From contig JAGWBR010000003.1 in assembly GCA_021295785.1 (NCBI GenBank), forward strand, positions 65,236 to 129,235: a stretch of DNA of 64,000 nucleotides, given 5' to 3'. Made by a program: the position numbers and the translations under genes. The first letter of the stretch is position 1; each line of letters starts with the position of its first letter. The DNA is from Gemmatimonadota bacterium (GTDB taxonomy: Bacteria > Gemmatimonadota > Gemmatimonadetes > Palauibacterales > Palauibacteraceae). The notes beneath the pieces are model-generated. The model saw only the letters and a program-made list of their open reading frames with translations, was not told the origin of the DNA and ran no database searches. Shown piece by piece: positions 46,008-61,299 of this stretch.

Positions 46008-48407
46008 ATGTTTGCCGGACTTCGCGATCTTCGGCGCCGCGTGCGTGATACCACGGGGTTATTCGCCGAGCTGCACCGCCAGGGCGGGGCCATGGCCGAT
46101 TACCGCATCCTCGCCAAACGGTTCAATGTGGTTTTCGACCCGGAAATAATGGAAGAGGCACTGCTCCGGAAGCACGCCTGTTTGGGCAAGGGCAAGCAGC
46201 AACAGCGCACGCTCGACAACCTCTGCATCGTCACCGCCGACGGCGATGATCACAAGTGGCGCCGCAAACTGTTGCAGCCTTCCTTCACGCCGAATGCGCT
46301 GCGCGGCTACGCGGTGGCGATGGTTGAGGAGGCCGTTCGGCAGCGCGACTCGGTTCGTGACGGGCAGGAGCTCGACATCGATCACCTCAGCCACGAACTG
46401 TCCCTTTCCATCACGGCCCGGACGTTCTTCGGGGACGACCTGCACGTTGAGCCTGCGATCATGAAGGAAGCGCTGGCAGGTTACCGGTGGCGGGCCGTCT
46501 TGGGGCTGCTTCCCCTGGGGCGTGTGGTTAAGGCCCTGCCCCTGCCCCGCACCATCGCCAGCGAGAGGGCGATCAAGCGGCTGGACGACCGTGTTTACGA
46601 GGCCATCCGCAAAGCCCGGGCCAGCGCGCAGGAGCGCACTGATCTGATTGCCCACCTTGTGGCCGCCTGGGATGAGGGGCACCCTGCGGGGACATTTCCG
46701 GAAAGCGCGCTCAAAGACGAGGCTTTCGCGATCTTGGTGGCGGCTCACGAGAACACTGCGGTAACGCTGACTTGGTGCTTCTATCATCTGAGCCGTAACC
46801 CCGGGGCCCGCGAGCGCCTCGAAGCCGAGTTGGAAGAGGTACTTGGCCACCGTCTGCCGGACTTCGACGACGTTGAACGCCTGGTGTACACGAAGGCGGT
46901 AATGGACGAGACCATGCGACTGACCCCGACCGCAACGTATTTGGGTCGTACTGCGCTAGAGGATATTGAGTTGGGCGGTCGGCAAATCCCCAGACACTCT
47001 GTGACGCAGTTTTCGATCCGCACTCCGATGCGGGATGCGAAGTACTTCCCCCAACCGGAACGCTTCCGGCCCGAGCGCTGGCTCTCGTCCTCCGCCGACC
47101 TTCCGCGTCTGGCCTACGCGCCGTTCGGTGCCGGCAACCGGTTCTGCAGCGGGTTCAGGTTTGCCACCATCCAGATGGTACTGGCACTGGCGATCATTGC
47201 CCGGCGCTGGCGGTTTGAGCTGGTCTCCAAGGAAGATCCGGCAGTCGTTGATTTCATCATCTACAAATGCAAGGATGGTCTGCCGGTTGTGGCCCGCGAG
47301 CGGACAGGCAAGGCAGAAATTCCCGTTGGTGGCCCGCGAGCGAAACTTCAAACGAGGGGCCAGAAGGGCGGTCGCGTGACCGACATTCCGCCGGTTTTTG
47401 TCTTCAGCACCGGTCGGTGCGGCTCAACCATGGTCTCGGAGATGCTGAACCAGCACCCGGGCGTGCTCAGCATGTCCGAGTTCTTTGCGCAGCTCGGGGT
47501 GGCGGCTTTCACCCGGAAGAAAATCAGCGGCGACGAGATGTGGCGGATGTACAGCGAGCACACGCCCCGAATGCGGATCGTGACGTACGAGGGCCTGACC
47601 GAGGTGCTCTACCCGTTCACAGATCCCGTTGCCCGCTTCAACGCGGAAAACCTCCCGCCGATTCTGGCCGTGACGCTTCCTCACCTGACTGACAAGTACG
47701 AAGAACTGTTCGACGAGCTGGGTCCGGCCGTGCGCGCGATGTCCGACGCCACACCCGCCGACCATATCAGGGCGCTCTGCCAGTGGCTGTGCCAGCGACG
47801 GGGCTCAAGGGTGTGGGTGGAGCGTCATGGCGGCTCACTGATCCTTGCTTCGCGACTGCTGCGCTACTTCCCCGAGGCAAGGATTGTGCATATGTACCGG
47901 GACGGCCGTGAGACGGCGTTGTCGATGGCGAAACACCCTCCGTTCAAGCTGGCGCTGGCTCGGGCCAGGCGGGCCAGGCGTATTGGCCTTGACGCGTACC
48001 GTTTGCTCGAACGGTTCGAGCGGCGGGACCGGCTAACCCAGGCGATTCAGAAGGCCCAGTGGCGGATGACCGACCTGGACGCCTTCATGGCCGAGGAAGC
48101 GACCCTGCCCGAGGCGGCGGAACTCTGGAGCAAGATGATCGAAACCGGGCACCGGGTCTTCGGCCATTTCCCCCCCGACCGGCTGCTGAACCTGCGGTTC
48201 GAAGACATGCAACAGAATCCGGCTGAAGAGGCGCGTCGCCTCATCCGGTTCATTTCGCCGGAACTCGACGACGACGCTTGGGTAGCCGAGGTGGCGAAGA
48301 TCCCGCGCCAGACAGAATCGAAATTTGCGCAGCTGGACTCGGCCCAGCAGGCCGCGATCACGGCCGCGTGCCGCCCCGGGCTCGAGCGGCTGGGGTATTC
48401 GTCCTAG
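46008..48407 (+). CDS. Cytochrome P450 :: PAPS-dependent sulfotransferase fusion protein (799 aa)
   Basis: N-terminal approx. 430 aa has P450 signatures: I-helix VAAHENTAVTLTW, ExxR DETMRLTP, haem-binding loop FGAGNRFCSGFRFA (FxxGxRxCxG). C-terminal approx. 340 aa (from about 47388) has the sulfotransferase 5'-PSB P-loop PPVFVFSTGRCGSTMV and 3'-PB YRDGRETALSM (Sulfotransfer_3-like). Single uninterrupted frame; ATG at 46008. Confidence 0.85.
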   Translation: MFAGLRDLRRRVRDTTGLFAELHRQGGAMADYRILAKRFNVVFDPEIMEEALLRKHACLGKGKQQQRTLDNLCIVTADGDDHKWRRKLLQPSFTPNALRGYAVAMVEEAVRQRDSVRDGQELDIDHLSHELSLSITARTFFGDDLHVEPAIMKEALAGYRWRAVLGLLPLGRVVKALPLPRTIASERAIKRLDDRVYEAIRKARASAQERTDLIAHLVAAWDEGHPAGTFPESALKDEAFAILVAAHENTAVTLTWCFYHLSRNPGARERLEAELEEVLGHRLPDFDDVERLVYTKAVMDETMRLTPTATYLGRTALEDIELGGRQIPRHSVTQFSIRTPMRDAKYFPQPERFRPERWLSSSADLPRLAYAPFGAGNRFCSGFRFATIQMVLALAIIARRWRFELVSKEDPAVVDFIIYKCKDGLPVVARERTGKAEIPVGGPRAKLQTRGQKGGRVTDIPPVFVFSTGRCGSTMVSEMLNQHPGVLSMSEFFAQLGVAAFTRKKISGDEMWRMYSEHTPRMRIVTYEGLTEVLYPFTDPVARFNAENLPPILAVTLPHLTDKYEELFDELGPAVRAMSDATPADHIRALCQWLCQRRGSRVWVERHGGSLILASRLLRYFPEARIVHMYRDGRETALSMAKHPPFKLALARARRARRIGLDAYRLLERFERRDRLTQAIQKAQWRMTDLDAFMAEEATLPEAAELWSKMIETGHRVFGHFPPDRLLNLRFEDMQQNPAEEARRLIRFISPELDDDAWVAEVAKIPRQTESKFAQLDSAQQAAITAACRPGLERLGYSS

Positions 48408-48632
48408 CGCGCTATCGCGGGAATACTCACCGGTGGATGTCCCTGGCGACGCGAAAACCCATTGTGGAGGCGCTATGAGCGAGCCCCTGTCAGTTTGTCG
48501 TCCCGAATCTCCTGCTCGCTCAGCGGCTCGCAAGCGCAGCCAGTGTCCTCACCACCACTTTCACGAAATTCATGCTGCCCGTAACGCCCCACGCTAGAGC
48601 GCTAGTTGAGTTTGCGCAATTCATTGTCTAGA

Positions 48633-49727
48633 ATGCCGCGCCTACGACGCCAAACTCCGAGGTGCGTTTTGCCCAACATCGATACGCCCCCCGTGTTTGT
48701 GGTCAGCACCGGGCGGTGCGGTTCTACGATGGTCTCCAACATGGCCCGGCTGCACCCCCGGATTCTTAGCGTGTCCGAGTTCCTGGCGTGCCTGGCCGAC
48801 AAGGCGCTTGTTGGATCCCATCTTGACGGCGAGGGGTTGTACGAGCGCTTCGCCAATCTGCGCCCCGTTGGGAAGGCCCTGCTCCGCAACAACCTGATCG
48901 TCAGCGAATACCTCTACCCCGTTGGGCAGCCCGGGTCCCGGTTCGGACCCCGGGACGTGCCGGCAATCATGGGAGCTACGCTACCCCACCTGTCGGACGA
49001 CCCGGAAGCCCTCTGGGACGAGCTTGTCCCCGTGATCCGGGCGCGTGGCCGGTACACCTTGCAGGCCCAGTACAGGTTCTTTTTTGAATGGCTGGCCGTC
49101 CGTTTCGGCAAGGATGTGTGGATTGAACGGTCCGGGGCTTCGATTCTCAGCGTCCCGACCCTGGCCAGGCTCTTCCCCGACGCCCGTTTCGTGCATGTCT
49201 ACCGCGACGGCCGCGACACGGCCATCTCCATGCGGGGCCACTACGTGTTCCGCATGTACCTGGGCATGGCGATGCGTGGCAGGCGCGTCGGCATGGATTC
49301 TTTCAGCCCGCGCAACTGGCCGGGGACCAGTCGTTGGGTGCCCTGGTTCACTCCTCTGGTGTTTCGGAGCTTTGACGCCAAAGCCGACAATTTCCGCGAC
49401 AATCCCGCCGCGCTGCACGAGTTCGGGTGGTTGTGGAGCAGTATGATCGAACGGGGTACCAGATACTTGGACGCGCTCCCGAAGGACCGCGTCCTCAACA
49501 TGCGCTTTGAGACTGTACTAGAATCCCCCAAAGATGAAATGCGGCGGTTTGCCGAATTCGTGGGCCCAGGATTCGTGGACGAAGACTGGCTTGAACGGAT
49601 CACCTTGCTTCCCCGCAAGAAGACACCCAGCTGGATGAAGTTGACTTCCGACGAGCATGCCCGCCTGGCCGCAGCATGCACACCTGGACAGCGGATTCTG
49701 GAATACGCCCAAGACGAGCAGTCGTGA
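48633..49727 (+). CDS. Sulfotransferase (Sulfotransfer_3-like), paralogue of the C-terminal domain of the upstream fusion
   Basis: MPRLRRQTPRCVLPNIDTPPVFVVSTGRCGSTMVSNM (5'-PSB) and ARFVHVYRDGRDTAISM (3'-PB). Collinear similarity to residues about 460-799 of the fusion through to the C-terminus (VLNMRFETVLESPKDEMRRF vs LLNLRFEDMQQNPAEEARRL). The ORF track starts at TTG 48606; ATG 48633 is preferred. Confidence 0.8.
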   Translation: MPRLRRQTPRCVLPNIDTPPVFVVSTGRCGSTMVSNMARLHPRILSVSEFLACLADKALVGSHLDGEGLYERFANLRPVGKALLRNNLIVSEYLYPVGQPGSRFGPRDVPAIMGATLPHLSDDPEALWDELVPVIRARGRYTLQAQYRFFFEWLAVRFGKDVWIERSGASILSVPTLARLFPDARFVHVYRDGRDTAISMRGHYVFRMYLGMAMRGRRVGMDSFSPRNWPGTSRWVPWFTPLVFRSFDAKADNFRDNPAALHEFGWLWSSMIERGTRYLDALPKDRVLNMRFETVLESPKDEMRRFAEFVGPGFVDEDWLERITLLPRKKTPSWMKLTSDEHARLAAACTPGQRILEYAQDEQS

Positions 49728-50932
49728 TCACTACCGAGACCCGCGAGTTGGCTCAGTATCCCGAGACGGGACCCGCATGTTACCGCGAGCGTTTCGACCG
49801 GACTGTTGCGAAGGTGGGGCCGGCACTGGCCAGAGAATACGTCATCCAGGCCCAGGTTGGCGACCCGCCGGCCGATGTCGCGGTGCAGGAGCTGCAGCCG
49901 CGCGGGGTGACCGAGATCAACCGGCTGATCCGGGCCGGAATGGACCGCGACAAGGAGACGCTGAAGGAAGCGCCGCGATCACTGATCGACCTCTTTGAAG
50001 AGGTCAACGAACCGCCCGACTGGTGGGATCCCAAGGTGGCACAGGCCGGGATAAGGGCGTTCCATGCTCATTCCGACCTGTTTATTCCGGCCCTCTTCGT
50101 GTCCACGGTCCAGAACGCCTCCACGCTGATCGCGAAGTCGTTCCATGCCACCGGGCGCGTCAATTCACAGTTCGGGCCCAGGCGAATTCGCCAAAACACG
50201 CGCCACTTTATCGAAATCATGATGCCGGGCGGCCTGGACCGCGAGGGAGAAGGCTGGCGCCTGTCGGTGCGTATTCGTCTGGTGCACGCCCAGATTCGGC
50301 GCTTGATCCTGGATTACGGCGAGTGGGACGAAGCGACTTTCGGGGCCCCGATCCACGCCGCTCATTTGGGGGTCGCGGCGGCCAATTTTTCGGCCGGAAT
50401 GCTGCGCCATGCGACCGCGCTGGGTGCATCCCTCAGTGCGGAAGCCCGCGAGGGGTTCATGCATGCCTGGCGATACGCGTCATTGCTGACTGGTATCCCT
50501 GAAAGACTCCTTTTCGAAGGGAACGAAGAGAAGACGCGAGAGCTGTGGCGGACCGCCCGGGCGATTGAACCTCCGCCGGGCGAAGAGTCACTCGTCATCG
50601 CCACGGCCCTGTTCGACGCTCTGCCGAGGATTGCGGGCAAGCGGGAGGGGAAGGAATTCGACCAGGTGCGCACCCACGCCGCCCGCGTAACCCGGGCGCT
50701 AATTGGCCGGAAAACTGCAGACCGCCTGGAGTTGGCCCGGGGCATGCCGGGGGCGATGGCGGCGATGCGAACGCGGCGCAAACTCACCGGGCAACTGCAT
50801 AAGGTTGCGCCGACGGTCGCCGCGGCATGGCGCGCATCGGCCTTTTCCTTCCTGTTGGATGCTGCGCTGCTCGATGACCTGAAGTACACGCTGCCCGACA
50901 AGCTCAAGGCCACCGAGGCTACCCCCTGGTGA
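49724..50932 (+). CDS. MpaB/DUF2236-family (latex-clearing-protein-like) putative oxygenase
   Basis: GTG at 49724 overlaps the sulfotransferase TGA (GTGA). Conserved DUF2236 blocks: PDWWDPKVAQAGIRAFHAHSDL, RRIRQNTRHFIEIMMPGG, WRLSVRIRLVHAQIRR. About 400 aa. Confidence 0.65.
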   Translation: MITTETRELAQYPETGPACYRERFDRTVAKVGPALAREYVIQAQVGDPPADVAVQELQPRGVTEINRLIRAGMDRDKETLKEAPRSLIDLFEEVNEPPDWWDPKVAQAGIRAFHAHSDLFIPALFVSTVQNASTLIAKSFHATGRVNSQFGPRRIRQNTRHFIEIMMPGGLDREGEGWRLSVRIRLVHAQIRRLILDYGEWDEATFGAPIHAAHLGVAAANFSAGMLRHATALGASLSAEAREGFMHAWRYASLLTGIPERLLFEGNEEKTRELWRTARAIEPPPGEESLVIATALFDALPRIAGKREGKEFDQVRTHAARVTRALIGRKTADRLELARGMPGAMAAMRTRRKLTGQLHKVAPTVAAAWRASAFSFLLDAALLDDLKYTLPDKLKATEATPW

Positions 50933-50976
50933 CCGCACCCCGGCACTGGTGAACCGCGCTTCGGCGGGACTGAACC

Positions 50977-51342
50977 GTGCCGCCTGAACTCAAACGGTGC
51001 CCCCGTTATCCGTGGACCTGCGTGAACAGCCACGATACCGTCCGGCCAAGATGTACCATTGCCCCCTTCACGATCGCCGGGGACCCGTGGCAGGAATTCG
51101 GGCGCCTCGCGGAGATCGTGCGCCGTCAGCCCCGCACCAAAATCGATACTGTGACCCAGGACTATCTGAGTGCGCGGTTCAGGACCCGGATCGCCTTCCC
51201 CGACCGGCTCGAACTCGTCTTGTCCCCGGACCAAGGAGTGATTCACGTGCGCTCGATGTCGATTCTGGCCCCGATTTGGGACTTTGGAGCGAATCGCAGG
51301 AGGGTCGAGTCCCTACGTGTCCAGTTTGAAGGCGAACGCTAG
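50977..51342 (+). CDS. Small hypothetical protein, DUF1499-like (tentative)
   Basis: 121-aa ORF between the oxygenase and cysD. C-terminal ...[21 protein letters not shown] resembles the DUF1499 motif. Family assignment is from memory and not certain. Confidence 0.35.
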
Positions 51343-51350
51343 GCCCGCCC

Positions 51351-52253
51351 GTGCGTGACGATCGCGTCCTGGCTGCCCTTGAGGACGAGGCGATCGAGAT
51401 CATCCGCGAGGGAGTGGCCGCGGCTTCCCGCCCCGTCATGCTCTATTCGATCGGCAAAGACTCCTCGGTCTTGCTTCGCCTGGCGCAGAGGGCTTTCTGG
51501 CCGGCCCCGCTGCCGATGCCTCTGCTGCACGTTGACACGACCTGGAAGTTCCGGGAGATGATCCAGTTCCGGGACCGCACGGCTGCCGAGGACGGGATCA
51601 AACTGATCGTGCACACCAATCAAGAAGGCGTGCAGGCTGGCGTCACGCCGTTCACGCATTCTTCGTCGCGCTATACCGAGGTGATGAAGACCGAGGCGCT
51701 GCGGCAGGCGCTCGACGCCGGCGGCTATGACATGATCTTCATCGGCGCCCGCCGGGACGAAGAGAAGTCGCGCGCCAAGGAGCGGATTTTCTCGTTTCGG
51801 AATGCGGCCCACCAGTGGGAGCCGCGGGCCCAGCGCCCCGAACTCTGGAACCTCTACAACACCCGGCTCGGGGCTGGCGAGTCGCTGCGGGTTGCCCCGA
51901 TGTCCAACTGGACCGAGGCCGACATCTGGCGCTACATCGCCGCCCGGGAAATCCCGATCGTGTCGCTTTACCATGCGGCCGAGCGGCCGGTGGTGGAGCG
52001 CGAGGGACAGCTCATCATGGTGGACGACGACCGCATGCCCCTGAATCCCGGCGAGGCGCCTGAGTCCCGGTTGGTGCGTTTTCGGACCCTGGGCTGCTAT
52101 CCCCTGACCGCCGCGGTCGAGAGCACGGCGACCACGCTGGACGCGATTATCGCCGAGACCCTGGCCGCCGACGGTTCGGAGCGCGAGGGACGCCTGATCG
52201 ACCACGATGACGAGGCCTCGATGGAGAAGAAGAAGCGGGACGGCTACTTCTGA
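51351..52253 (+). CDS. cysD: Sulfate adenylyltransferase subunit 2
   Basis: GTG start. [18 protein letters not shown] is the PAPS-reductase-like PP-loop. Motifs [50 protein letters not shown]. 300 aa. Confidence 0.95.
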
Positions 52254-54109
52254 TGGGCCGAGAAGTAACCTCCCCAACCTCCAACCGGCTTGCCCCACTC
52301 CGCCTTGTGCTTTGCGGGAGCGTGGACGACGGCAAGAGCACCTTGATCGGGCGAATGCTGTACGACAGCAACCAAGTCTTCGCCGATCAGCTCGGCAAAG
52401 TCGAAGCTGACTCTCGGCGGTGGGGCACGCAAGGCGAGAACATCGACCTCGCGCTGCTCCTGGACGGTTTGCAGGACGAACGCGAGCAGGGCATCACGAT
52501 CGATGTCGCCTACCGCTCTTTGGAGACGCCGCGGCGGCGGTTCATTGTTGCCGATGTGCCCGGCCACGAGCAGTACACGCGCAACATGGCGACGGGTGCC
52601 TCCACCGCGCAGGTGGCCATAATCCTGGTCAACGCGCGCCGGGGGATTCTGCCGCAAACGGCCCGCCACACGCGGATCGCGGCCATGTTCGGGGTGCGCC
52701 ATGTGGTGCTGGCGGTCAACAAGATGGACCTGGTCGATTGGGACCAGGCAACGTTTGAGGCGCTCGAAGAAGAGTACCGGGAGCTGACGGACGACGTCGG
52801 CGTGCCCGAGGTGGTGGCCATGCCGGTGTCCGGCCTGACCGGCGACAACCTCACGCGCCGCTCGGACAACATGCCCTGGTACGACGGTCCGACCCTGCTG
52901 GAGCACCTCGAAACCGTGCAAGTGACAGACCCGGGCGATGATGCCCCGTTCAGGATGCCGGTCCAGTACGTGAACCGCCCCCATTCGGAGTTCCGCGGGT
53001 ACTGCGGCCGCGTGGCTTCCGGGACGGTTAAACCCGGGCAGCGGATCCGGGTGGTGCCCGGGAGCAGCGAGTCACCGGTGAAATCGGTTCTGGTTGGCCG
53101 GGGCGAGGTCGAGCGCGCGGGCCGCGGCGATTCGGTCACGCTGACCTTTTCCACCGAGATTGACGTGACACGCGGGGACGTGATCGCCGACGCCGAAGAC
53201 GCACCGGCAGTCTCGGACCAGTTCCGCGCCTCGATCCTGTGGATGGGCGAGCAGCCGTTGGTGGCCGGGCGCCTGTACCTGCTCAAGATGCACACCCGCG
53301 AGGTCACGGCGAAGGTCACGTCCATTCGTCACTCGGTGGAGGTGCGCACCGGGGAGCGGCTTGCCGCCAAGCAGCTTGAGCTGAATGAGATCGGCGTGGT
53401 GAATTTGGCCACTTCCCGGCCCGTCCCGTTTGCCCCGTTCGAGGAGAACGGGAAGCTGGGCGGGTTCATCTTGGTGGACCGGGGCAACAACCGAACGGTT
53501 GCGGCAGGCACGATCAGTTACGCGCTCATGCGGGCAGCCAACGTGACGTGGCAACAATTCGACATCAGCCGCGAGGTCCGGGCGCAGCTCAAGCGGCAGG
53601 ATGCCCGGTGTCTGTGGTTCACGGGCCTGTCCGCGTCGGGCAAGTCCACGGTGGCGAATCTGCTGGAGCGACGCCTCTACATCGAAGGGCGGCACACCTA
53701 CCTGCTGGACGGCGACAACGTGCGCCACGGGTTGAACGCCGACCTGGGCTTCACCGAGATCGACCGTACCGAGAACATCCGGCGCGTGGCCGAGGTTGCG
53801 CGTTTGATGGTAGACGCCGGGTTGATCGTGATTGTGTCGTTCATCAGCCCGTTCCGGGCCGACCGCGAGATGGCGCGGGGGCTTTTCGAACCCGGGGAAT
53901 TTCTTGAGGTATTCATTGATGCGTCCGCCGAAGAGTGTGCCCGGCGCGACCCCAAGGGGCTCTACGCCAAGGCCCTGCGCGGCGAGATCAAGAACTTCAC
54001 GGGGATCAGCAGTCCGTACGAGCGGCCAGAGGAGCCCGAGATCCACCTCAGCACCGAGGAATTGTCGCCCGAAGACTGCGTCGAGGAGCTCCTCCGCAAA
54101 CTGAATTAG
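52253..54109 (+). CDS. cysNC: Bifunctional sulfate adenylyltransferase subunit 1 / adenylylsulfate (APS) kinase
   Basis: ATG overlaps the cysD stop (TGATG). N-terminal GTPase LRLVLCGSVDDGKSTLIGRML...DVPGHEQY...NKMD (CysN). C-terminal APS kinase CLWFTGLSASGKSTVANLL...LDGDNVRHGLNADLGFTE...SFISPFRADR (CysC). Confidence 0.95.
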   Translation: MGREVTSPTSNRLAPLRLVLCGSVDDGKSTLIGRMLYDSNQVFADQLGKVEADSRRWGTQGENIDLALLLDGLQDEREQGITIDVAYRSLETPRRRFIVADVPGHEQYTRNMATGASTAQVAIILVNARRGILPQTARHTRIAAMFGVRHVVLAVNKMDLVDWDQATFEALEEEYRELTDDVGVPEVVAMPVSGLTGDNLTRRSDNMPWYDGPTLLEHLETVQVTDPGDDAPFRMPVQYVNRPHSEFRGYCGRVASGTVKPGQRIRVVPGSSESPVKSVLVGRGEVERAGRGDSVTLTFSTEIDVTRGDVIADAEDAPAVSDQFRASILWMGEQPLVAGRLYLLKMHTREVTAKVTSIRHSVEVRTGERLAAKQLELNEIGVVNLATSRPVPFAPFEENGKLGGFILVDRGNNRTVAAGTISYALMRAANVTWQQFDISREVRAQLKRQDARCLWFTGLSASGKSTVANLLERRLYIEGRHTYLLDGDNVRHGLNADLGFTEIDRTENIRRVAEVARLMVDAGLIVIVSFISPFRADREMARGLFEPGEFLEVFIDASAEECARRDPKGLYAKALRGEIKNFTGISSPYERPEEPEIHLSTEELSPEDCVEELLRKLN

Positions 54110-54281
54110 AGCCCGGATGGCGTGATACAGGGTGGTTTCCGTGTTTGCAACGGCATCTGGGATCTGGTTTGCAATCCCCAACCGGACGGCGCCGAGGTCC
54201 GGTTAGGTTCCTCAAGCACCGCACTACCCCATACAGGAGTACGTCATGGTACGCCGCCACACAGCTCAAGTCCGTGGCCGC

Positions 54282-55361
54282 ATGGTGGCTGGCTCAACGG
54301 TCGCACCGGTCCTTGTTTCCGTTCTGGTCGGTCCCGGGACACGGGCCGCCCAGGGCCAGGATCGCGTCGGACCGGAGGTGATCGAGATCACGTCGGGAGT
54401 TGGTGCCGTCCTGCAGGCAGTGAGTCCCGTGTCGGATTCGGTGGTATGGATGAGCGGGCACGAGGGCGTGATCATCAGAACCCTCGACGCAGGAGACCGC
54501 TGGGAACGGGTGAACGCCCCCAGTGGCGACTCGCTTCAGTTTCGGGACGTCCACGGTTTCTCGGCAGCGCATGCGGTGGCGCTGAGCGCGGGCTCGGGAC
54601 CCGCGTCGCGCATCTACCGAACTGCGGACGGAGGCCGGAGCTGGGAGCTCGCGTTCGCCATGGACCATCCGGATGGCTTCCTCGACTGCCTGGACTTCTG
54701 GGACGACGGCCGAGGTTTCGCCTACGGAGACAGCTTTGACGGCGTACCCTACATCCTGGTAACCGCCGACGGAGGCGCGACTTGGGAACGGGCACCGCGG
54801 GACGGGCTGCCGGCCGCCAACGAAGGCGAGGGGGGCTTTGCGGCGAGCGGCACCTGCGCGAGGGCGGTCGGCGACGGACTCGGCTGGATCGGCACCGGGG
54901 CCGGCGGGTCCGCCCGCGTGCTGAGGACCAGCGACTACGGCGCAACCTGGACCGCGACCGATGTGGACATCGCGAGGGGGCCAAGCGCGGGGGTTTACAC
55001 GCTGGCCGTGGATCCGGCGGTGGCATCAGGCACCAGCGGTTGGGTCTTGGCACTGGGCGGAGACTATGCGGCCGATGCCGTCCTGGCCAATGTGGCCGTC
55101 AGTTCGGACCTCGGCGGGAGCTGGCGGCACGGAGAGGACGCCCCCGTCCCCGGGGCCATCTACGGCAGCGCGATCGCCCACGACGAAACGGGCCTCACCG
55201 CGGTGGCCGTTTCCCCCGCCGGCGCGGCTTTCACGACGACTTTGGGAATGTCCTGGACATCTCTGCCCGGCGTTAGCGCATGGGCGGTTGAGGCCGCCCC
55301 AACAGGAACAATGTTCTGGGCCGCCGGAGCGGAGGGCAGGATCTTGCTAATCGCGTTCTGA
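54282..55361 (+). CDS. BNR-repeat (Ycf48/sialidase-like beta-propeller) exported protein
   Basis: Signal peptide MVAGSTVAPVLVSVLVGPGTRAAQGQ. Five S/TxDxGxxW BNR repeats (TADGGRSWE, TADGGATWE, SDYGATWT, SSDLGGSWR, TTLGMSWT). Confidence 0.7.
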   Translation: MVAGSTVAPVLVSVLVGPGTRAAQGQDRVGPEVIEITSGVGAVLQAVSPVSDSVVWMSGHEGVIIRTLDAGDRWERVNAPSGDSLQFRDVHGFSAAHAVALSAGSGPASRIYRTADGGRSWELAFAMDHPDGFLDCLDFWDDGRGFAYGDSFDGVPYILVTADGGATWERAPRDGLPAANEGEGGFAASGTCARAVGDGLGWIGTGAGGSARVLRTSDYGATWTATDVDIARGPSAGVYTLAVDPAVASGTSGWVLALGGDYAADAVLANVAVSSDLGGSWRHGEDAPVPGAIYGSAIAHDETGLTAVAVSPAGAAFTTTLGMSWTSLPGVSAWAVEAAPTGTMFWAAGAEGRILLIAF

Positions 55362-58965: not shown

Positions 58966-61299
58966 TCACATCCTTACGATGAGATTACCGCCGGCAGGGT
59001 CGCCAGGCAACGCGCCGGCCGGCACGGGGCCCGACCCGTCGTCCGCCGGTGGCGATGCCCTGCCGATGACGGCGGCACCCCGGTCACCGGCTTCGCGGAG
59101 CCTGGCGACGACGGCCGAGGCCTGCCCGGGGGCCACTCCGAACAGAAGACCGCCCGATGTCTGGGGGTCAAACAGGAGTTCGGAGCGCACCGCGCGGAGT
59201 GGATCGCCTGCCCCGCCGCCCTGCTCCCCGGTTTCCGGGTCCACATTCCGGACAAAACGGATCTTGGCACGGAGGCGGGCGTTGTCAGGATGGAACGTGC
59301 TCCGGACTCCGGTCGCCAACAAAGGAAGCGCACCCGGCAAGGCGGGGAGAGACGCCAACCCAACCGTAACAGTGACGCCCGACGCCTCGGCCAGGGTCAT
59401 CAAGTGGCCAGCCAAGCCGAACCCGGTCACGTCGGTGGCTCCCGTCGCGCCCGCATCCCGTGCAACCCGCGCCGCGTTCCGGTTGGTGCGCACCATGGAC
59501 TCAAGCGCCGCCTGGAGCCACGCCCCGCGCGCCAGACCCAGCATGTCGCCGCGCAACACGACCCCGGTCCCCAGCGGTTTGGTGAGGATGATCTCCTGCC
59601 CGGGCAGGATTCCGCTGACGAGCAACGGCTCCTCCGCGCCCAAGAAACCCTCCACGTGGAATCCGACCGAGGTTTGCGATCCGACCACGGTGTGGCCGCC
59701 CACCAGAACGGTCCCGGTGGACGAGAGGACCTCCCGCGCCCCGCTCATTATTTGGTGCAACATCTCTTGCCGGTCGTCCGGTGTCGCCTGTTCGGGCACT
59801 GACACGACCGCCTGGGCAACTCCTGGCCGAACTCCCTTGGCCAGCACGTCCGAAACGGCGTTGGCCGCGGCAACACGCCCGAGCGTGTACGGGTCGTCCG
59901 TGAACTGGCGCACAATATCAACGCTGGCCACGACCGCCTCGCCGCCGGGAGTGCGGTAGGCGGCGGCGTCTTCCAACGGGCTCAGGCAAGGCACTATCGA
60001 GCCGGCCGCCCCCTTGGGGGAACCGAGCCGGTCGAGCACTGATTCCAGCTCGGCACGACCGAGTTTCGCCGCGCATCCACCGCAGGTCTCGTTCATGGAA
60101 GCCAGCATCGCAGCGGGACGCCGGAACTGCCGAGCCACCGCGCCGTCGGGGCCCAACACTTGGAAGCGCTTCATGAAGCGGCGGTCGATAAGGGCCTTCA
60201 GGCGCCAGGCCAGCGCACCCCCAAACACCAGTGACCCCTTTGCGCCGACCGCGCTGCCGTCACCCAGGTTGAGGAGGGTGAGGAACCGCCGCTGCGGCCG
60301 GTAGCGGGCGAACCTGCCGGACGGGCCGCCCGATCCGCCACGCAGCAAGGTCCCGGCGGCGCGGCGCAGGTTCTTGGCGAGCACTGGTCCCTGACGCACC
60401 GCGTACACACCGGCCTTGGGCACCCACGGGGCGACCTCCAACGCGGCGCAGTCCCCCACCGCGAACACCCTCGGATGCCCTCTGGCCTGGAGGGTCGGCC
60501 CCACCAAGACAAATCCGGCCGAATCCACCGCGAGTTCGCCCGGATCGAACCCGGCGGGCGGCGCGGCACCGGTGGTCCACAGCACGACCCTGGCTCGCTC
60601 AAACGCGGGAGTCGGCTCAGACGACGACCGGGACCACTCCAAACTCACGCCGTCGCGAGAGACCGCGCGAACCCGGCAGGACGTCAGAACCCTGATCCCC
60701 CGCCGCCGGGCTTCGGCCCGAATCCGGCGGGCGACCTGCTCCGGGTATCCCGGGAGAATGCGGTCCGAGGCCTCGATGAGAGTCGCCCGGCCCGAGCGAG
60801 CCGCAACCGCGAAGGCCAGTTCCACCCCCCCCGCCCCCGCACCGACCACTACCGCACTGGCGGGCTCAGACGGGTCAAGCGCACTCAGCCTCGCCGCCAG
60901 AGCGTCCCCAAACCGACCGAGCGGCCGCGTGGGAACCACATGCTCGGCAGCGCCCGGAACATCCATACCGCGGACGGAGGACCCGATATCGAAAGACACC
61001 AAGTCATATCGCAGTGCGGGTCGATCGGCCAGCAAGATCCGGCGACCGGCCAGGTCAACGCCCCGTGCCGCGGACAAAACCACGCGTGCCCCCGCCATCC
61101 GGGCCAGGGGCACGATGTCGATTTCCAATTGTTCGGCGGAGTACTGCCCGGCCACCAACCCGGGCACCATGCCCGAATAGACGGCGACCGGCACATCCAC
61201 TACCACGGTCACCCGCACCGCCGCCGGCAGCGACCGCATGACAATGCTTTTCAACACCTGCACGTGGGCGTGACCACCACCCACCAGCACCAGGTCCAC
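58966..61299 (-). CDS. selD: Fusion protein: FAD-dependent pyridine nucleotide-disulfide oxidoreductase (NADH-dehydrogenase-like) :: selenide, water dikinase (selenophosphate synthetase)
   Basis: GTG start. VDLVLVGGGHAHVQVL...AVVVGAGAGGVELA...VFAVGDCAA are the two Rossmann FAD/NAD motifs. From about aa 440: MNETCGGCAAKLG (SelD N-terminal Cys loop, Cys not Sec), then the AIR-synthase-like fold (VVASVDIV...DPYTLGRVAAANAVSDVLAKG; TDVTGFGLAGHL). Confidence 0.85.
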   Translation of the reverse strand: MDLVLVGGGHAHVQVLKSIVMRSLPAAVRVTVVVDVPVAVYSGMVPGLVAGQYSAEQLEIDIVPLARMAGARVVLSAARGVDLAGRRILLADRPALRYDLVSFDIGSSVRGMDVPGAAEHVVPTRPLGRFGDALAARLSALDPSEPASAVVVGAGAGGVELAFAVAARSGRATLIEASDRILPGYPEQVARRIRAEARRRGIRVLTSCRVRAVSRDGVSLEWSRSSSEPTPAFERARVVLWTTGAAPPAGFDPGELAVDSAGFVLVGPTLQARGHPRVFAVGDCAALEVAPWVPKAGVYAVRQGPVLAKNLRRAAGTLLRGGSGGPSGRFARYRPQRRFLTLLNLGDGSAVGAKGSLVFGGALAWRLKALIDRRFMKRFQVLGPDGAVARQFRRPAAMLASMNETCGGCAAKLGRAELESVLDRLGSPKGAAGSIVPCLSPLEDAAAYRTPGGEAVVASVDIVRQFTDDPYTLGRVAAANAVSDVLAKGVRPGVAQAVVSVPEQATPDDRQEMLHQIMSGAREVLSSTGTVLVGGHTVVGSQTSVGFHVEGFLGAEEPLLVSGILPGQEIILTKPLGTGVVLRGDMLGLARGAWLQAALESMVRTNRNAARVARDAGATGATDVTGFGLAGHLMTLAEASGVTVTVGLASLPALPGALPLLATGVRSTFHPDNARLRAKIRFVRNVDPETGEQGGGAGDPLRAVRSELLFDPQTSGGLLFGVAPGQASAVVARLREAGDRGAAVIGRASPPADDGSGPVPAGALPGDPAGGNLIVRM

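What the first reader, a model, noticed from the sequence alone, without database searches (positions are those of the whole stretch)
47388..49727. Tandem sulfotransferase paralogy: fused C-terminal domain and the downstream stand-alone enzyme are duplicates
The fused domain and the next gene align collinearly over their whole length. Examples: PPVFVFSTGRCGSTMVSEMLNQHPGVLSMSEFFAQLG vs PPVFVVSTGRCGSTMVSNMARLHPRILSVSEFLACLA; ARIVHMYRDGRETALSMAKH vs ARFVHVYRDGRDTAISMRGH; the C-terminal LRFEDMQQNPAEEARRLIRFI vs MRFETVLESPKDEMRRFAEFV. This suggests a local duplication followed by fusion of one copy to the P450. It raises the possibility of two sulfation events (bis-sulfated product) or two regiospecificities. 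The 225-bp gap between them (48408-48632) is relatively AT-rich for this genome. It contains TTGAGT-17nt-TAGAAT directly abutting the ATG, which may be an internal promoter.
Basis: seen in the sequence. Interest (0 to 1): 0.6.

Follow-up and report, generated by a model that had tools for sequence, protein, structure and literature searches.

The report
P450-sulfotransferase fusion beside ancient paralogue
In an uncultured sponge-associated Gemmatimonadota bacterium, a hydroxylating enzyme (P450) has recently become joined to a sulfate-adding enzyme that sits next to an old relative of itself, inside a gene cluster that makes its own activated sulfate; the two sulfate-adding enzymes are related, but they are not a recent local copy of each other.

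Summary
The C-terminal domain of the 799-aa ORF (46008-48407) and the next gene are collinear sulfotransferase paralogues (39% identity over 342 aa, E 2e-83).

- **Old paralogy.** Each copy has hundreds of closer homologues in other phyla (ST1 up to 79%, ST2 up to 75%). A tree separates two clades in 100/100 bootstraps, and synonymous sites are saturated.
- **Recent, real fusion.** At least three independent sponge-metagenome assemblies (99.3-99.5% identical DNA) carry the same 799-aa ORF. All other homologues found are stand-alone, and no other fusion in this order turned up.
- **Likely origin.** A ~40-nt tandem duplication at the 3' end of the P450 gene shifts the frame. This bypasses a TGA that overlapped the GTG start of ST1. 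That start codon survives as GTG or ATG in all six variants.
- **Promoter.** The promoter-like motif exists, but its -10 box overlaps the proposed ATG. It fits a TTG start at 48669 instead.
- **Context.** The cluster holds P450-ST1, ST2, an MpaB/Lcp-like oxygenase, DUF1499, CysD and CysNC. Versions of it recur across many phyla, apparently sponge symbionts.

The substrate is unknown; an oxidised lipophilic, possibly isoprenoid, acceptor is inferred.

The parts
46008..48407 (+). Continuous 799-aa ORF: cytochrome P450 fused in frame to sulfotransferase ST1
   Evidence: ORF list. Pfam p450 aa 19-411 and Sulfotransfer_3/_1 aa 462-755. The same 799-aa ORF is called in L085, L086 and L091, which are independent assemblies. 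Five distinct 799-aa variants are in the protein collection.
46008..47282 (+). P450 domain, up to the conserved ...YKCKDGLPV end of the fold
   Evidence: All columns invariant among 7 close P450s are kept. These include the heme-ligand C380 in FGAGNRFCSG and E301/R304 of ExxR. Nearest solved structure is 3dbg, E 3e-43; I know this entry as CYP170A1, which the tool output does not state. The nearest homologue P0121 (73%) is a stand-alone 436-aa protein ending 13 aa after GLPV.
47263..47342 (+). Two tandem ~40-nt units (47263-47302 and 47303-47342), with a 14-nt exact repeat at 47289-47302 / 47329-47342. Proposed duplication that shifted the frame and created the fusion
   Evidence: The units align at 28/40 positions; 0 of 2000 shuffles reach that score. 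Only two places in the 64 kb have a 13-mer repeated within 100 nt. Deleting one unit gives ...GLPVVARERNFKRGARRAVA*.
47283..47375 (+). Linker of the fusion (aa 426-456), made of the duplicated unit plus the old P450 tail read in a new frame
   Evidence: The AlphaFold2 model of the whole ORF has pLDDT below 50 for aa 424-457 and pTM 0.56 despite mean pLDDT 83.9, so it is a disordered tether with no confident domain interface. Both SNPs in this stretch among the strains are non-synonymous.
47376..47379 (+). GTGA: GTG (codon 457) is the ancestral ST1 start codon; the out-of-frame TGA (47377-47379) is the inferred ancestral P450 stop
   Evidence: The GTG aligns with Met1 of ST1 orthologues (M[NS][DE]IPPVF...). 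Codon 457 is ATG in 2 of 6 variants and GTG in the other 4. The frame-0 translation ends at this TGA. The same GTGA overlap occurs at the ST2/MpaB junction.
47376..48407 (+). ST1 sulfotransferase domain (343 aa counted from the ancestral start)
   Evidence: The best 120 homologues are all 289-422 aa, most about 343 aa, and none carries a P450 domain; identity is 79-47%. It keeps all 50 positions that are at least 95% conserved in both clades, including TGRCGST, SxSEF and RDGR...S...H. The AF2 model has pLDDT 88 and a PAPS-sulfotransferase fold.
48408..48668 (+). Intergenic region between the fused gene and ST2; AT-rich relative to the genome
   Evidence: GC 58-59% against 65.8%. No Rfam family. 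RNA folding z-score -0.10. One SNP among the three strains.
48606..48634 (+). Sigma-70-like motif TTGAGT-17-TAGAAT. The predicted transcription start near 48641 lies downstream of the ATG at 48633
   Evidence: The TSS position is inferred from the usual distance of about 7 nt after a -10 box.
48404..48415 (.). Palindrome CTAGCGCGCTAT overlapping the stop codon of the fused gene; first of two copies
   Evidence: The pattern CTAGMGCGCTAG (up to 1 mismatch) occurs only at 48404 and 48594 in the window, against 0.21 expected. The copies are part of an 18-nt inverted repeat that is 83% complementary.
48594..48605 (.). Palindrome CTAGAGCGCTAG immediately upstream of the -35 hexamer; second copy. Candidate operator (inferred)
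48669..49727 (+). ST2, stand-alone sulfotransferase. Likely TTG start at 48669, with GAGG at 48659-48662. Alternative in-frame starts are the ATG at 48633 and the TTG at 48606
   Evidence: The 99%-identical protein P0238 is called at 352 aa, which corresponds to a start at 48669. Orthologues carry a short lead, under about 20 aa in most, before the PVF motif, so the start is not settled by homology. Pfam hits. It keeps all 50 family-conserved residues.
49724..50932 (+). MpaB/Lcp-like oxygenase gene; its GTG start overlaps the ST2 stop (GTGA)
   Evidence: Pfam MPAB_Lcp_cat 51.5 bits, cutoff 23. Rubber oxygenase 5o1l, E 1e-6. Gene call in L085 and sequence. A homologue lies within 10 kb in 65 of 80 related loci and immediately upstream on the same strand in 45.
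51022..51342 (+). DUF1499 gene
   Evidence: Called with PF07386 in the 99%-identical L085 and L086. It recurs next to homologous clusters in L087, L088 and L090.
51351..52253 (+). CysD-like sulfate adenylyltransferase subunit 2
   Evidence: Pfam PAPS_reduct 178.6 bits. 61-80% identical homologues lie in related clusters.
52253..54109 (+). CysN-CysC fusion (GTPase subunit plus APS kinase). Together with CysD this is a PAPS-synthesis module
   Evidence: Pfam GTP_EFTU, GTP-eEF1A_C and APS_kinase (220.8 bits).

Best explanation
The region is part of a sulfation gene cluster of an uncultured Gemmatimonadota bacterium found in marine sponge metagenomes. The cluster holds P450-ST1, ST2, an MpaB/Lcp-like oxygenase, DUF1499, CysD and CysN-CysC.

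ST1 and ST2 are PAPS-dependent sulfotransferases from two old subfamilies of one large, uncharacterised family. They are paralogues, but they did not arise by a recent duplication at this locus.

The P450-ST1 fusion, in contrast, is young and specific to this species. The P450 gene originally ended at a TGA that overlapped the GTG start of ST1 (GTGA, a translationally coupled pair). A ~40-nt tandem duplication near the 3' end of the P450 gene then shifted the frame by +1. Translation now runs past that TGA through a ~30-residue disordered linker into ST1.

Inferred function: the P450, and probably the MpaB-like oxygenase, create an oxygen function on a lipophilic, possibly isoprenoid or steroid-like, acceptor. 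ST1 and ST2 then sulfate it using PAPS made by the adjacent CysD/CysNC. The fusion tethers the hydroxylation and sulfation steps.

ST2 and the downstream genes are probably transcribed from the AT-rich intergenic region, with ST2 starting at TTG 48669.

Shown: the paralogy, its age, the reality and rarity of the fusion, the repeat at the junction, intact motifs, and cluster conservation. Inferred: the order of events, the substrate class, channelling, and promoter use.
For: Paralogy: 39% identity, E 2e-83, collinear.

Age of the paralogy:
- The best 120 ST1 homologues listed are 79-47% identical and the ST2 homologues below its own-species 99% hit are 75-47% identical; none is fused.
- An NJ tree of 80 sequences splits into two clades with 100/100 support; ST1 and ST2 are sisters in 0/100.
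- dN 0.64, dS 1.5, third-position identity 39%.
- L033 carries both types.

Fusion is real:
- L085, L086 and L091 come from three different assemblies, are 99.3-99.5% identical in DNA, and carry the same 799-aa ORF.
- Five distinct 799-aa variants exist.

Fusion is rare and recent:
- All 117 P450 homologues lack a sulfotransferase domain; the nearest is 73% identical, 436 aa, with its own stop.
- A scan of 1.84 billion representative proteins shows no other P450-then-ST protein among the best 150.
- AF2 gives a disordered linker (aa 424-457, pLDDT below 50) and pTM 0.56.

Mechanism of fusion:
- Two 40-nt units align at 28/40 with a 14-nt exact core; 0/2000 shuffles match this.
- Removing one unit restores a P450 tail of 16 aa after GLPV, ending in a TGA that overlaps the GTG. 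The sister P450 has 13 aa after GLPV.
- That GTG aligns to Met1 of the orthologues and is GTG or ATG in all six variants.
- The same GTGA overlap is used at ST2/MpaB.

Competence of the enzymes: all 50 family-conserved ST residues are kept in both copies. The P450 heme-Cys and ExxR motifs are kept.

Pathway logic:
- CysD and CysN-CysC lie in the cluster.
- MpaB-ST adjacency occurs in 45 of 80 loci.
- The same gene set surrounds ST2 orthologues.
- Independent ST-P450 fusions in the reverse order exist (P0399, P0409, P0378).
- P450 affinities are to a Streptomyces P450 structure (3dbg), the carotenoid hydroxylase LUT5, CYP3A and BM3, and to the NCBIfam albaflavenone-monooxygenase and pentalenene-oxygenase models. 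The MpaB-like protein resembles rubber oxygenase.
- An analogous characterised layout exists in Bacteroides: the cholesterol sulfotransferase BT_0416 lies next to a sulfate importer and PAPS genes (PMC9417993).
Against: - The junction of the sister lineage could not be retrieved. The ancestral GTGA-overlap state, and even P450-ST1 adjacency in that lineage, are therefore reconstructed and not observed.
- The two 40-nt units are only 70% identical, so part of the similarity could have another origin. A simple stop-codon loss cannot be excluded.
- Polymorphism in the fused gene is enriched in non-synonymous changes: 13 non-synonymous to 10 synonymous, against 17 to 44 in six neighbouring genes (Fisher p 0.02; p 0.06 without the linker). 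The window strain also has changes at conserved glycines (G285D, G595C). This may mean relaxed constraint rather than a newly optimised enzyme.
- No redox partner for the P450 was identified.
- The substrate is unknown. All matches to characterised enzymes are remote: NCBIfam 209 bits against a cutoff of 700, and 14-15% identity to TPST.
- The promoter motif is not statistically enriched.
Confidence: 0.7

Rival explanations
1. One reading: a recent local tandem duplication produced ST1 and ST2, and one copy was then fused to the P450.
For: The two genes are adjacent, on the same strand, and collinear at 39% identity. No third copy is in the window.
Against: ST1 and ST2 are never sisters (0/100 bootstraps) and the clade split has 100/100 support. 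At least 119 homologues of each copy from other genomes are closer than the two are to each other. Synonymous sites are saturated. Both types co-occur in a Nitrospirales genome. ST2 orthologues have their own conserved context without ST1.
Confidence: 0.04
2. The fusion is an assembly or sequencing artefact, and P450 and ST1 are really two separate genes.
For: Every homologue outside this species is stand-alone. The NCBI annotation of what appears to be the source MAG lists only a 410-aa 'sulfotransferase' (P0360) that begins inside the P450 part.
Against: The same uninterrupted 799-aa ORF is found in three assemblies made from different samples (ENA ERZ15614335, ENA ERZ23495298, GenBank LXNJ01) plus further variants. 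They differ only by SNPs and have no indel at the junction. A 40-nt duplication is not a typical read error.
Confidence: 0.04
3. The ORF is continuous but behaves as two proteins. ST1 is still translated on its own from the retained internal GTG/ATG (47376), and the full-length fusion is a minor, neutral or mildly deleterious by-product, possibly on the way to decay.
For: Codon 457 is a start-competent GTG or ATG in all six variants, and the GTG/ATG polymorphism is itself non-synonymous. An AAGGG purine stretch lies 7 nt upstream. The linker is disordered and no interface is predicted. There is an excess of non-synonymous polymorphism in the fused gene, and the window strain has changes at conserved glycines.
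Against: There are no stops or frameshifts in any of six variants at about 0.5-0.7% DNA divergence. All conserved catalytic and motif residues are intact. Ribosomes translating the P450 cannot terminate before ST1, so the fusion protein must be produced whenever the P450 is. SNP counts are small (p 0.02-0.06).
Confidence: 0.2
4. ST1 arrived next to ST2 by horizontal transfer or rearrangement, as an insertion of a P450-ST1 or ST1 cassette upstream of an ST2-MpaB-Cys operon. The AT-rich intergenic region bounded by inverted repeats would be a scar of that event.
For: The closest ST1 homologues with a named source are in other phyla (Nitrospira, Bacteroidetes, Gammaproteobacteria, Rhodothermales; 61-65%). 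In L088 and L090 the ST2 orthologue directly follows a P450 with no ST1 between them. The intergenic region has low GC and 18-nt inverted repeats at its ends.
Against: No transposase or other mobile-element gene was noticed among the products annotated around the cluster, and the intergenic sequence has no other copy in the window or in the loci held at that point, L001-L084. GC3 of ST1 (0.82) and ST2 (0.78) is similar to that of neighbouring genes. This explanation is compatible with, rather than opposed to, the main one.
Confidence: 0.3

Closest known systems
PAPS-dependent sulfotransferases of the Sulfotransfer_3 type: tyrosylprotein sulfotransferases TPST1/2, the CurM and olefin-synthase ST domains, and mycobacterial Stf1/Stf9
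   Same: Same fold (Foldseek probability 1.0, E 6e-8 to 6e-4). Same three motif regions: a 5'-phosphosulfate loop (TGRCGST against RSGTT), a 3'-phosphate motif (RDGR...S), and a C-terminal segment.
   Different: Only 12-17% identity and TM-scores of 0.4-0.6. There is no NCBIfam model and no characterised member. ST1 and ST2 are about 60-80 residues longer than most of the closest solved chains. The acceptor is unknown.
Bacteroides thetaiotaomicron cholesterol sulfotransferase cluster (BT_0411-BT_0416)
   Same: A symbiont sulfotransferase lies directly next to genes for sulfate uptake and PAPS synthesis and sulfates a lipophilic alcohol (PMC9417993). In the window, CysD and CysN-CysC follow the sulfotransferases; homologous clusters add a STAS protein and a Xan_ur_permease-family gene that I read as a possible SulP-type sulfate permease.
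   Different: That cluster is not described with a P450, an MpaB-like oxygenase, a second sulfotransferase or a fusion. Sequence relatedness to BT_0416 was not tested here.
Natural P450 fusion proteins (P450 BM3/CYP102 with its reductase; other P450 fusions seen in the related loci)
   Same: A P450 is covalently joined to a partner enzyme of the same pathway. In homologous clusters P450s are also fused to a 3beta-HSD/epimerase domain (L088, 800 aa) and to a GPP34 domain (L001, 674 aa). ST-P450 proteins in the reverse order exist (P0399, P0409, P0378).
   Different: Here the partner is a downstream tailoring enzyme rather than a redox partner, and the order is P450 first, ST second. No other example of this order was found among the best 150 of 1.84 billion representatives. 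The fusion is confined to one species-level population.
Terpenoid- and carotenoid-oxidising P450s: Streptomyces structure 3dbg (CYP170A1 by my own knowledge), NCBIfam albaflavenone monooxygenase and pentalenene oxygenase models, LUT5 (CYP97A3 by my own knowledge)
   Same: These are the best sequence matches of the P450 domain (3dbg E 3e-43; LUT5 E 2e-33; NCBIfam albaflavenone monooxygenase 209 bits).
   Different: The scores are far below the equivalog cutoffs (700-800 bits). CYP3A and BM3 score similarly, so only a broad clan-level resemblance is shown.
MpaB / latex-clearing protein (Lcp) oxygenases
   Same: The neighbouring gene matches the MPAB_Lcp_cat domain and rubber oxygenase structures. 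From general knowledge, this family cleaves C=C bonds of isoprenoid chains.
   Different: The similarity is remote (E 1e-6). Coupling of this family to a sulfotransferase, seen in 45 of 80 loci, was not found in the literature searched.

Membership tests
PAPS-dependent sulfotransferase superfamily (Pfam Sulfotransfer_3 / Sulfotransfer_1) | Profile match above the curated threshold | tested here: met
   ST1 domain 76.3 bits and ST2 66.6 bits against a cutoff of 27. Sulfotransfer_1 gives 39 and 36 bits against a cutoff of 22.
PAPS-dependent sulfotransferase superfamily (Pfam Sulfotransfer_3 / Sulfotransfer_1) | 5'-phosphosulfate-binding loop and 3'-phosphate-binding motif are conserved | tested here: met
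   TGRCGST and RDGR...S...H are at least 95% conserved in both clades and are present in ST1 and ST2. They align to the TPST motifs.
PAPS-dependent sulfotransferase superfamily (Pfam Sulfotransfer_3 / Sulfotransfer_1) | Sulfotransferase fold | tested here: met
   The AF2 model (pLDDT 88.4) matches TPST1/2, CurM ST, Stf9 and Stf1 with Foldseek probability 1.0.
PAPS-dependent sulfotransferase superfamily (Pfam Sulfotransfer_3 / Sulfotransfer_1) | PAPS-dependent sulfuryl transfer to an acceptor | not testable with these tools
   This needs an enzyme assay. The adjacent PAPS-synthesis genes are circumstantial support.
Tyrosylprotein sulfotransferases (TPST) | Close sequence and structural similarity, including the peptide-binding groove | tested here: inconclusive
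   TPSTs are the best PDB hits, but at E 5e-5, 14-15% identity and TM 0.44-0.60. The gene context (P450, MpaB-like) argues for a small lipophilic acceptor. I do not file ST1 or ST2 as TPSTs.
Cytochrome P450 | Profile match, heme-thiolate Cys motif FxxGxRxCxG, and ExxR motif | tested here: met
   PF00067 208 bits. FGAGNRFCSG with C380, and E301/R304, are invariant among close homologues.
Albaflavenone monooxygenase (NCBIfam NF051859) / pentalenene oxygenase equivalogs | Score above the NCBIfam equivalog cutoff | tested here: not met
   208.7 bits against 700, and 180.3 bits against 800. This is a resemblance only.
Recent tandem gene duplicates | The two copies are each other's closest relatives | tested here: not met
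   They are sisters in 0 of 100 bootstraps, and the two clades separate in 100 of 100. Homologues in other genomes reach 79% and 75% identity, against 39-40% between the copies.
Recent tandem gene duplicates | Unsaturated synonymous divergence | tested here: not met
   NG86 dS is 1.5. Third-position identity is 39%, against roughly 34% that I estimate for chance at this GC3. YN00 fails on saturation.
Genuine gene fusion (Rosetta-stone type) | Uninterrupted ORF reproduced in independent data | tested here: met
   L085, L086 and L091, plus five 799-aa variants.
Genuine gene fusion (Rosetta-stone type) | The components are separate genes in relatives | tested here: met
   All listed ST1, ST2 and P450 homologues lack the partner domain. 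The ancestral start codon is identifiable at 47376.
Genuine gene fusion (Rosetta-stone type) | A full-length bifunctional protein is made | not testable with these tools
   This needs proteomics or heterologous expression.
Sigma-70-type promoter upstream of ST2 | -35/-10 consensus with 16-18 nt spacing | tested here: met
   TTGAGT-17-TAGAAT, 9 of 12 matches.
Sigma-70-type promoter upstream of ST2 | More matches than chance, and geometry compatible with the proposed start codon | tested here: not met
   2 hits against 0.9 +/- 0.9 expected. The -10 box overlaps the ATG at 48633. The geometry is compatible only with the TTG at 48669.
Sigma-70-type promoter upstream of ST2 | Experimentally mapped transcription start | not testable with these tools
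   This needs 5'-RACE or metatranscriptome data.
MpaB/Lcp oxygenase family (neighbouring gene) | Profile match above threshold | tested here: met
   PF09995 51.5 bits against a cutoff of 23. Rubber oxygenase 5o1l, E 1e-6.

The most novel reading that the evidence does not exclude
The MpaB-like oxygenase / sulfotransferase / P450 / PAPS-synthesis module is an uncharacterised pathway shared horizontally among sponge symbionts of more than ten phyla. It would oxidise and sulfate a host-derived or symbiont-derived isoprenoid lipid (a sterol or terpenoid), giving sulfated lipids of the kind sponges are known for. The P450-ST1 protein would then be a newly born single-chain 'hydroxylate-then-sulfate' enzyme, caught within one species shortly after its creation by a 40-nt duplication.
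Probability: 0.2. Interest if true: 0.7.

Novelty: new variant of a known kind. Interest (0 to 1): 0.42.

Why it matters
The tandem paralogy itself is ordinary. Three other things are worth attention.

First, this is a P450-sulfotransferase single-chain enzyme in an order not seen elsewhere, and the mutational event that made it can apparently still be read from the sequence. That makes it a clean case study of how a translationally coupled gene pair becomes a fusion protein.

Second, independent fusions of the same two enzyme types in the reverse order support the idea that this sulfotransferase family works together with P450s.

Third, the surrounding module (MpaB-like oxygenase, sulfotransferase, P450, DUF1499, CysD/CysNC) recurs in MAGs from many phyla, many of which appear from their names to be sponge symbionts. 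It has no characterised member. It is therefore a concrete candidate for the bacterial origin, or bacterial modification, of sulfated lipophilic metabolites in sponges. It also gives two paralogous enzymes whose substrates and regiospecificities could be compared directly.

Tried and rejected
- **Sister-lineage junction.** Exact-protein look-ups for P0001, P0121, P0124, P0122 and P0364 all returned nothing. The metagenome scan with a P450 alignment returned only the same species plus distant P450s. The ancestral junction therefore stays reconstructed.
- **Source genome.** The genome-contig scan did not recover it; the best hit was 65% identical.
- **Structured RNA in the 261-nt intergenic region.** No Rfam hit in the whole window. 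The folding energy is no better than shuffles, z -0.10. Rejected.
- **Mobile element in the intergenic region.** No other copy in the window or in the loci held at that point, L001-L084. Not supported, although the terminal inverted repeat remains unexplained.
Computed, but uninformative beyond showing saturation.
- **Residues fixed differently in the two clades.** None at the 95% level, so there is no sequence argument for or against different regiospecificities.
- **Named families for ST1, ST2, the MpaB-like protein and DUF1499.** NCBIfam gave nothing.
- **Literature.** Searches for P450-sulfotransferase fusions, for DUF2236 with sulfotransferase, and for sponge-symbiont sulfotransferases found nothing relevant.
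- **Assembly artefact.** Considered and rejected.
- **Domain docking in the fusion.** AF2 of the full-length protein gives no confident interface, pTM 0.56.

Full report
**1. What is at the coordinates**

The + strand carries one 799-aa ORF (46008-48407). It is followed by a 373-aa ORF from TTG 48606, which has further in-frame starts at ATG 48633 and TTG 48669 and ends at 49727. In Pfam the long ORF is a cytochrome P450 (aa 19-411, 208 bits) followed by Sulfotransfer_3/Sulfotransfer_1. The next ORF is a sulfotransferase of the same type.

There is no third copy in the window.

**2. The surroundings**

Downstream on the same strand lie:
- an MpaB/Lcp-like oxygenase (49724-50932), whose GTG start overlaps the ST2 stop as GTGA;
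- a DUF1499 gene (51022-51342);
- CysD (51351-52253);
- a CysN-CysC fusion with an APS-kinase domain (52253-54109).

The sulfotransferases therefore sit in a cluster that makes its own PAPS.

**3. The paralogy is old**

A search with the ST1 domain returned 855 homologues. The best 120 are all 289-422 aa, most about 343 aa, none has a P450 domain, and they are 79-47% identical. A search with ST2 returned 1309. Apart from the 99%-identical copy from the same species, the best listed are 75-47% identical and 318-384 aa long.

I built a neighbour-joining tree of 80 sequences: both window copies plus every third hit of each search that is 300-400 aa long. It splits into an ST1 clade (39 sequences) and an ST2 clade (41). 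The bipartition has 100/100 bootstrap support, ST1 and ST2 are sisters in 0/100, and ST1 pairs with its nearest orthologue P0001 in 100/100.

Codon analysis gives dN 0.64 and dS 1.5, with 39% identity at third positions. That is saturation. A Nitrospirales chromosome (L033) carries an ST1-like gene, a P450 and an ST2 orthologue (59%) in one cluster.

So the two genes belong to different, long-separated subfamilies. 'Local duplication' is not supported.

**4. The fusion is real**

ST2's 99%-identical database twin (P0238) led to contigs from two ENA assemblies (L085, L086). A metagenome scan led to GenBank LXNJ01000325.1 (L091). All three are 99.3-99.5% identical to the window over 21 kb and carry the same 799-aa ORF. 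They differ only by SNPs.

The protein collection holds five distinct 799-aa variants. It also holds a 410-aa NCBI entry, 'MAG: sulfotransferase [Gemmatimonadota bacterium]', which is exactly the C-terminal 410 residues of the window ORF. This suggests the taxon and shows that the public annotation misses the fusion. LXNJ is the Petrosia ficiformis sponge metagenome (PMC5099237).

**5. The fusion is recent and rare**

All 117 homologues of the P450 part lack a sulfotransferase domain and are 340-606 aa long. The nearest is P0121 (73%, 436 aa), which ends 13 residues after the conserved GLPV. It lies on a contig of the same length as the one that carries the nearest ST1 orthologue P0001, which begins MSDIPPVF.

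A HMMER scan with the whole 799-aa protein against 1.84 billion cluster representatives found no other P450-then-sulfotransferase protein among the best 150. It did find three reverse-order fusions:
- P0399, 791 aa, ST-P450;
- P0409, 827 aa, ST-P450;
- P0378, 1607 aa, ST, cNMP-binding, ferredoxin/FAD and P450 domains.

P0409 lies among glycosyltransferase, FAAL-like and MMPL genes.

AlphaFold2 on the full ORF gives two well-folded domains (mean pLDDT 83.9). The linker is disordered (aa 424-457, pLDDT below 50) and pTM is only 0.56, so no evolved interface is predicted.

**6. How the fusion probably arose**

The GTG at 47376 aligns with Met1 of the ST1 orthologues. It overlaps a TGA in the +1 frame, giving GTGA.

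Just upstream, two tandem 40-nt units (47263-47302 and 47303-47342) align at 28/40 positions with a 14-nt exact core. None of 2000 shuffles does as well. Only two places in the 64 kb have a 13-mer repeated within 100 nt.

Because 40 is not a multiple of three, the second unit shifts the frame. Removing one unit yields a P450 ending ...GLPVVARERNFKRGARRAVA*, whose TGA overlaps the ST1 start. This is the same coupled-gene architecture seen at ST2/MpaB.

I infer that a ~40-nt duplication converted a coupled P450/ST1 gene pair into one ORF. This step is inferred, because the sister-lineage DNA could not be retrieved.

**7. Is the fused gene healthy?**

Both sulfotransferase copies keep all 50 positions that are at least 95% conserved in both clades. 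These include TGRCGST, SxSEF and RDGR...S...H. The P450 keeps its heme-thiolate and ExxR motifs.

Codon 457 is GTG in four variants and ATG in two, so internal initiation of ST1 remains possible.

Among three strains the fused gene has 10 synonymous and 13 non-synonymous SNPs. Six neighbouring genes have 44 and 17 (Fisher p 0.02; p 0.06 without the linker). The window strain also carries G285D and G595C at conserved glycines. Constraint may therefore be somewhat relaxed. The numbers are small.

**8. The intergenic region and promoter**

The region 48408-48632 has 58% GC, which is in the lowest 1.5% of windows of that size.

TTGAGT-17-TAGAAT occupies 48606-48634, and its last two bases are the AT of the ATG at 48633. 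A transcript from it would start near 48641 and could not encode that ATG.

It does fit the TTG at 48669, which is preceded by GAGG at 48659-48662. This is the start chosen by the gene caller for the 352-aa twin P0238. Orthologue N-termini vary in length and do not settle the start.

The motif count is not above chance: 2 against 0.9 expected. No Rfam family and no unusual RNA fold is present. A palindrome, CTAG(C/A)GCGCTA(G/T), occurs only twice in the window, at the two ends of this region.

**9. What the cluster is likely to do**

Of 80 related loci from species-representative genomes:
- 65 have an MpaB-like gene within 10 kb;
- 45 have it immediately upstream of the sulfotransferase on the same strand;
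- 13 have CysD or CysNC;
- 20 have a P450;
- 3 have a second family member.

ST2 orthologues sit with MpaB, P450, DUF1499, CysD and CysNC. In two of the three contexts examined there is also a STAS-domain protein and a Xan_ur_permease-family gene, which I read as a possible SulP-type sulfate permease. In one case the orthologue lies directly after a 3beta-HSD/epimerase-P450 fusion.

The record titles span Nitrospirales, Rhodothermales, Alpha- and Gammaproteobacteria, Binatia, Dehalococcoidia, Acidobacteriota, Latescibacterota, Gemmatimonadota and Entotheonella. Many carry sponge-symbiont names or bin codes. That host assignment is my reading of the names. It is verified only for LXNJ and LXNI.

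The P450 resembles the Streptomyces P450 structure 3dbg (which I know as CYP170A1), LUT5 (a carotenoid hydroxylase), CYP3A and BM3, and the NCBIfam albaflavenone-monooxygenase and pentalenene-oxygenase models. The MpaB-like protein resembles rubber oxygenase. All of these matches are remote.

The sulfotransferase fold is closest to TPST, CurM-ST and Stf1/9, at 12-17% identity.

The most economical reading is oxidation of a lipophilic, possibly isoprenoid or steroid-like, acceptor followed by PAPS-dependent sulfation. The layout resembles the Bacteroides cholesterol-sulfotransferase cluster, where BT_0416 lies beside sulfate-import and PAPS genes (PMC9417993). The substrate is inferred, not shown. 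Nothing relevant was found in the literature searched.

**10. Verdict**

The evolutionary interpretation needs correcting: the paralogues are ancient, and the fusion is young and appears to come from a frameshifting duplication. The promoter proposal is plausible only with a different start codon.

The paralogy is unremarkable. The fusion is a new domain order for a known kind of event. The conserved, uncharacterised MpaB-ST-P450-PAPS module in apparent sponge symbionts is the most interesting by-product.

Noticed in passing
L005-L084 (genome loci); window 48669-54109: An MpaB/Lcp-like oxygenase gene lies immediately upstream of a sulfotransferase of this family in 45 of 80 loci, drawn from more than ten phyla of mostly sponge-associated-looking MAGs. 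CysD/CysNC, a P450 and DUF1499 are often nearby. No characterised member or publication was found.
   Followed up: partly
P0399, P0409, P0378; L095:8001-10484: Independent fusions of the same two enzyme types exist in the reverse order (ST then P450). One is a 1607-aa protein that also carries cNMP-binding, Fer2_BFD and FAD-binding domains. P0409 sits among glycosyltransferase, FAAL-like and MMPL genes.
   Followed up: partly
L088:5535-7937; L001:4308-6332: P450s in homologous clusters are fused to other partners: a 3beta-HSD/epimerase-P450 protein (800 aa) directly upstream of an ST2 orthologue, and a GPP34-P450 protein (674 aa) downstream of an ST1 orthologue.
   Followed up: no
window 48404-48415 and 48594-48605: The palindrome CTAG(C/A)GCGCTA(G/T) occurs only twice in 64 kb (0.21 expected), at the two ends of the ST1-ST2 intergenic region, within an 18-nt inverted repeat. 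It could be an operator pair or an insertion scar.
   Followed up: partly
window 46861, 47790, 48067 (codons 285, 595, 687 of the fused ORF): The window strain differs from other 799-aa variants at conserved positions: G285D and G595C against all five, R687M against four. The fused gene as a whole shows an excess of non-synonymous polymorphism compared with its neighbours (Fisher p 0.02).
   Followed up: partly
window 46008-48407 against NCBI protein MCE2422105.1 (P0360): The public annotation of what seems to be the source MAG lists only a 410-aa 'sulfotransferase' that starts at Met390 inside the P450 domain. The P450-sulfotransferase fusion is therefore not recorded there.
   Followed up: yes
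L090:6939-8004: In one related genome the P450 upstream of the ST2 orthologue is split into three short ORFs (115, 170 and 70 aa). It looks like a decaying P450 in an otherwise intact cluster.
   Followed up: no
window 58966-61299 (- strand): A 777-aa ORF combines a pyridine-nucleotide-disulphide oxidoreductase domain with AIR-synthase-related N- and C-terminal domains. This is an unusual two-enzyme fusion and is unrelated to the finding.
   Followed up: no
window 54246-55361; L088:16180-17089: A BNR/Sortilin-Vps10-repeat protein gene lies just downstream of the PAPS genes, both in the window and in a distantly related cluster. It may belong to the module.
   Followed up: no
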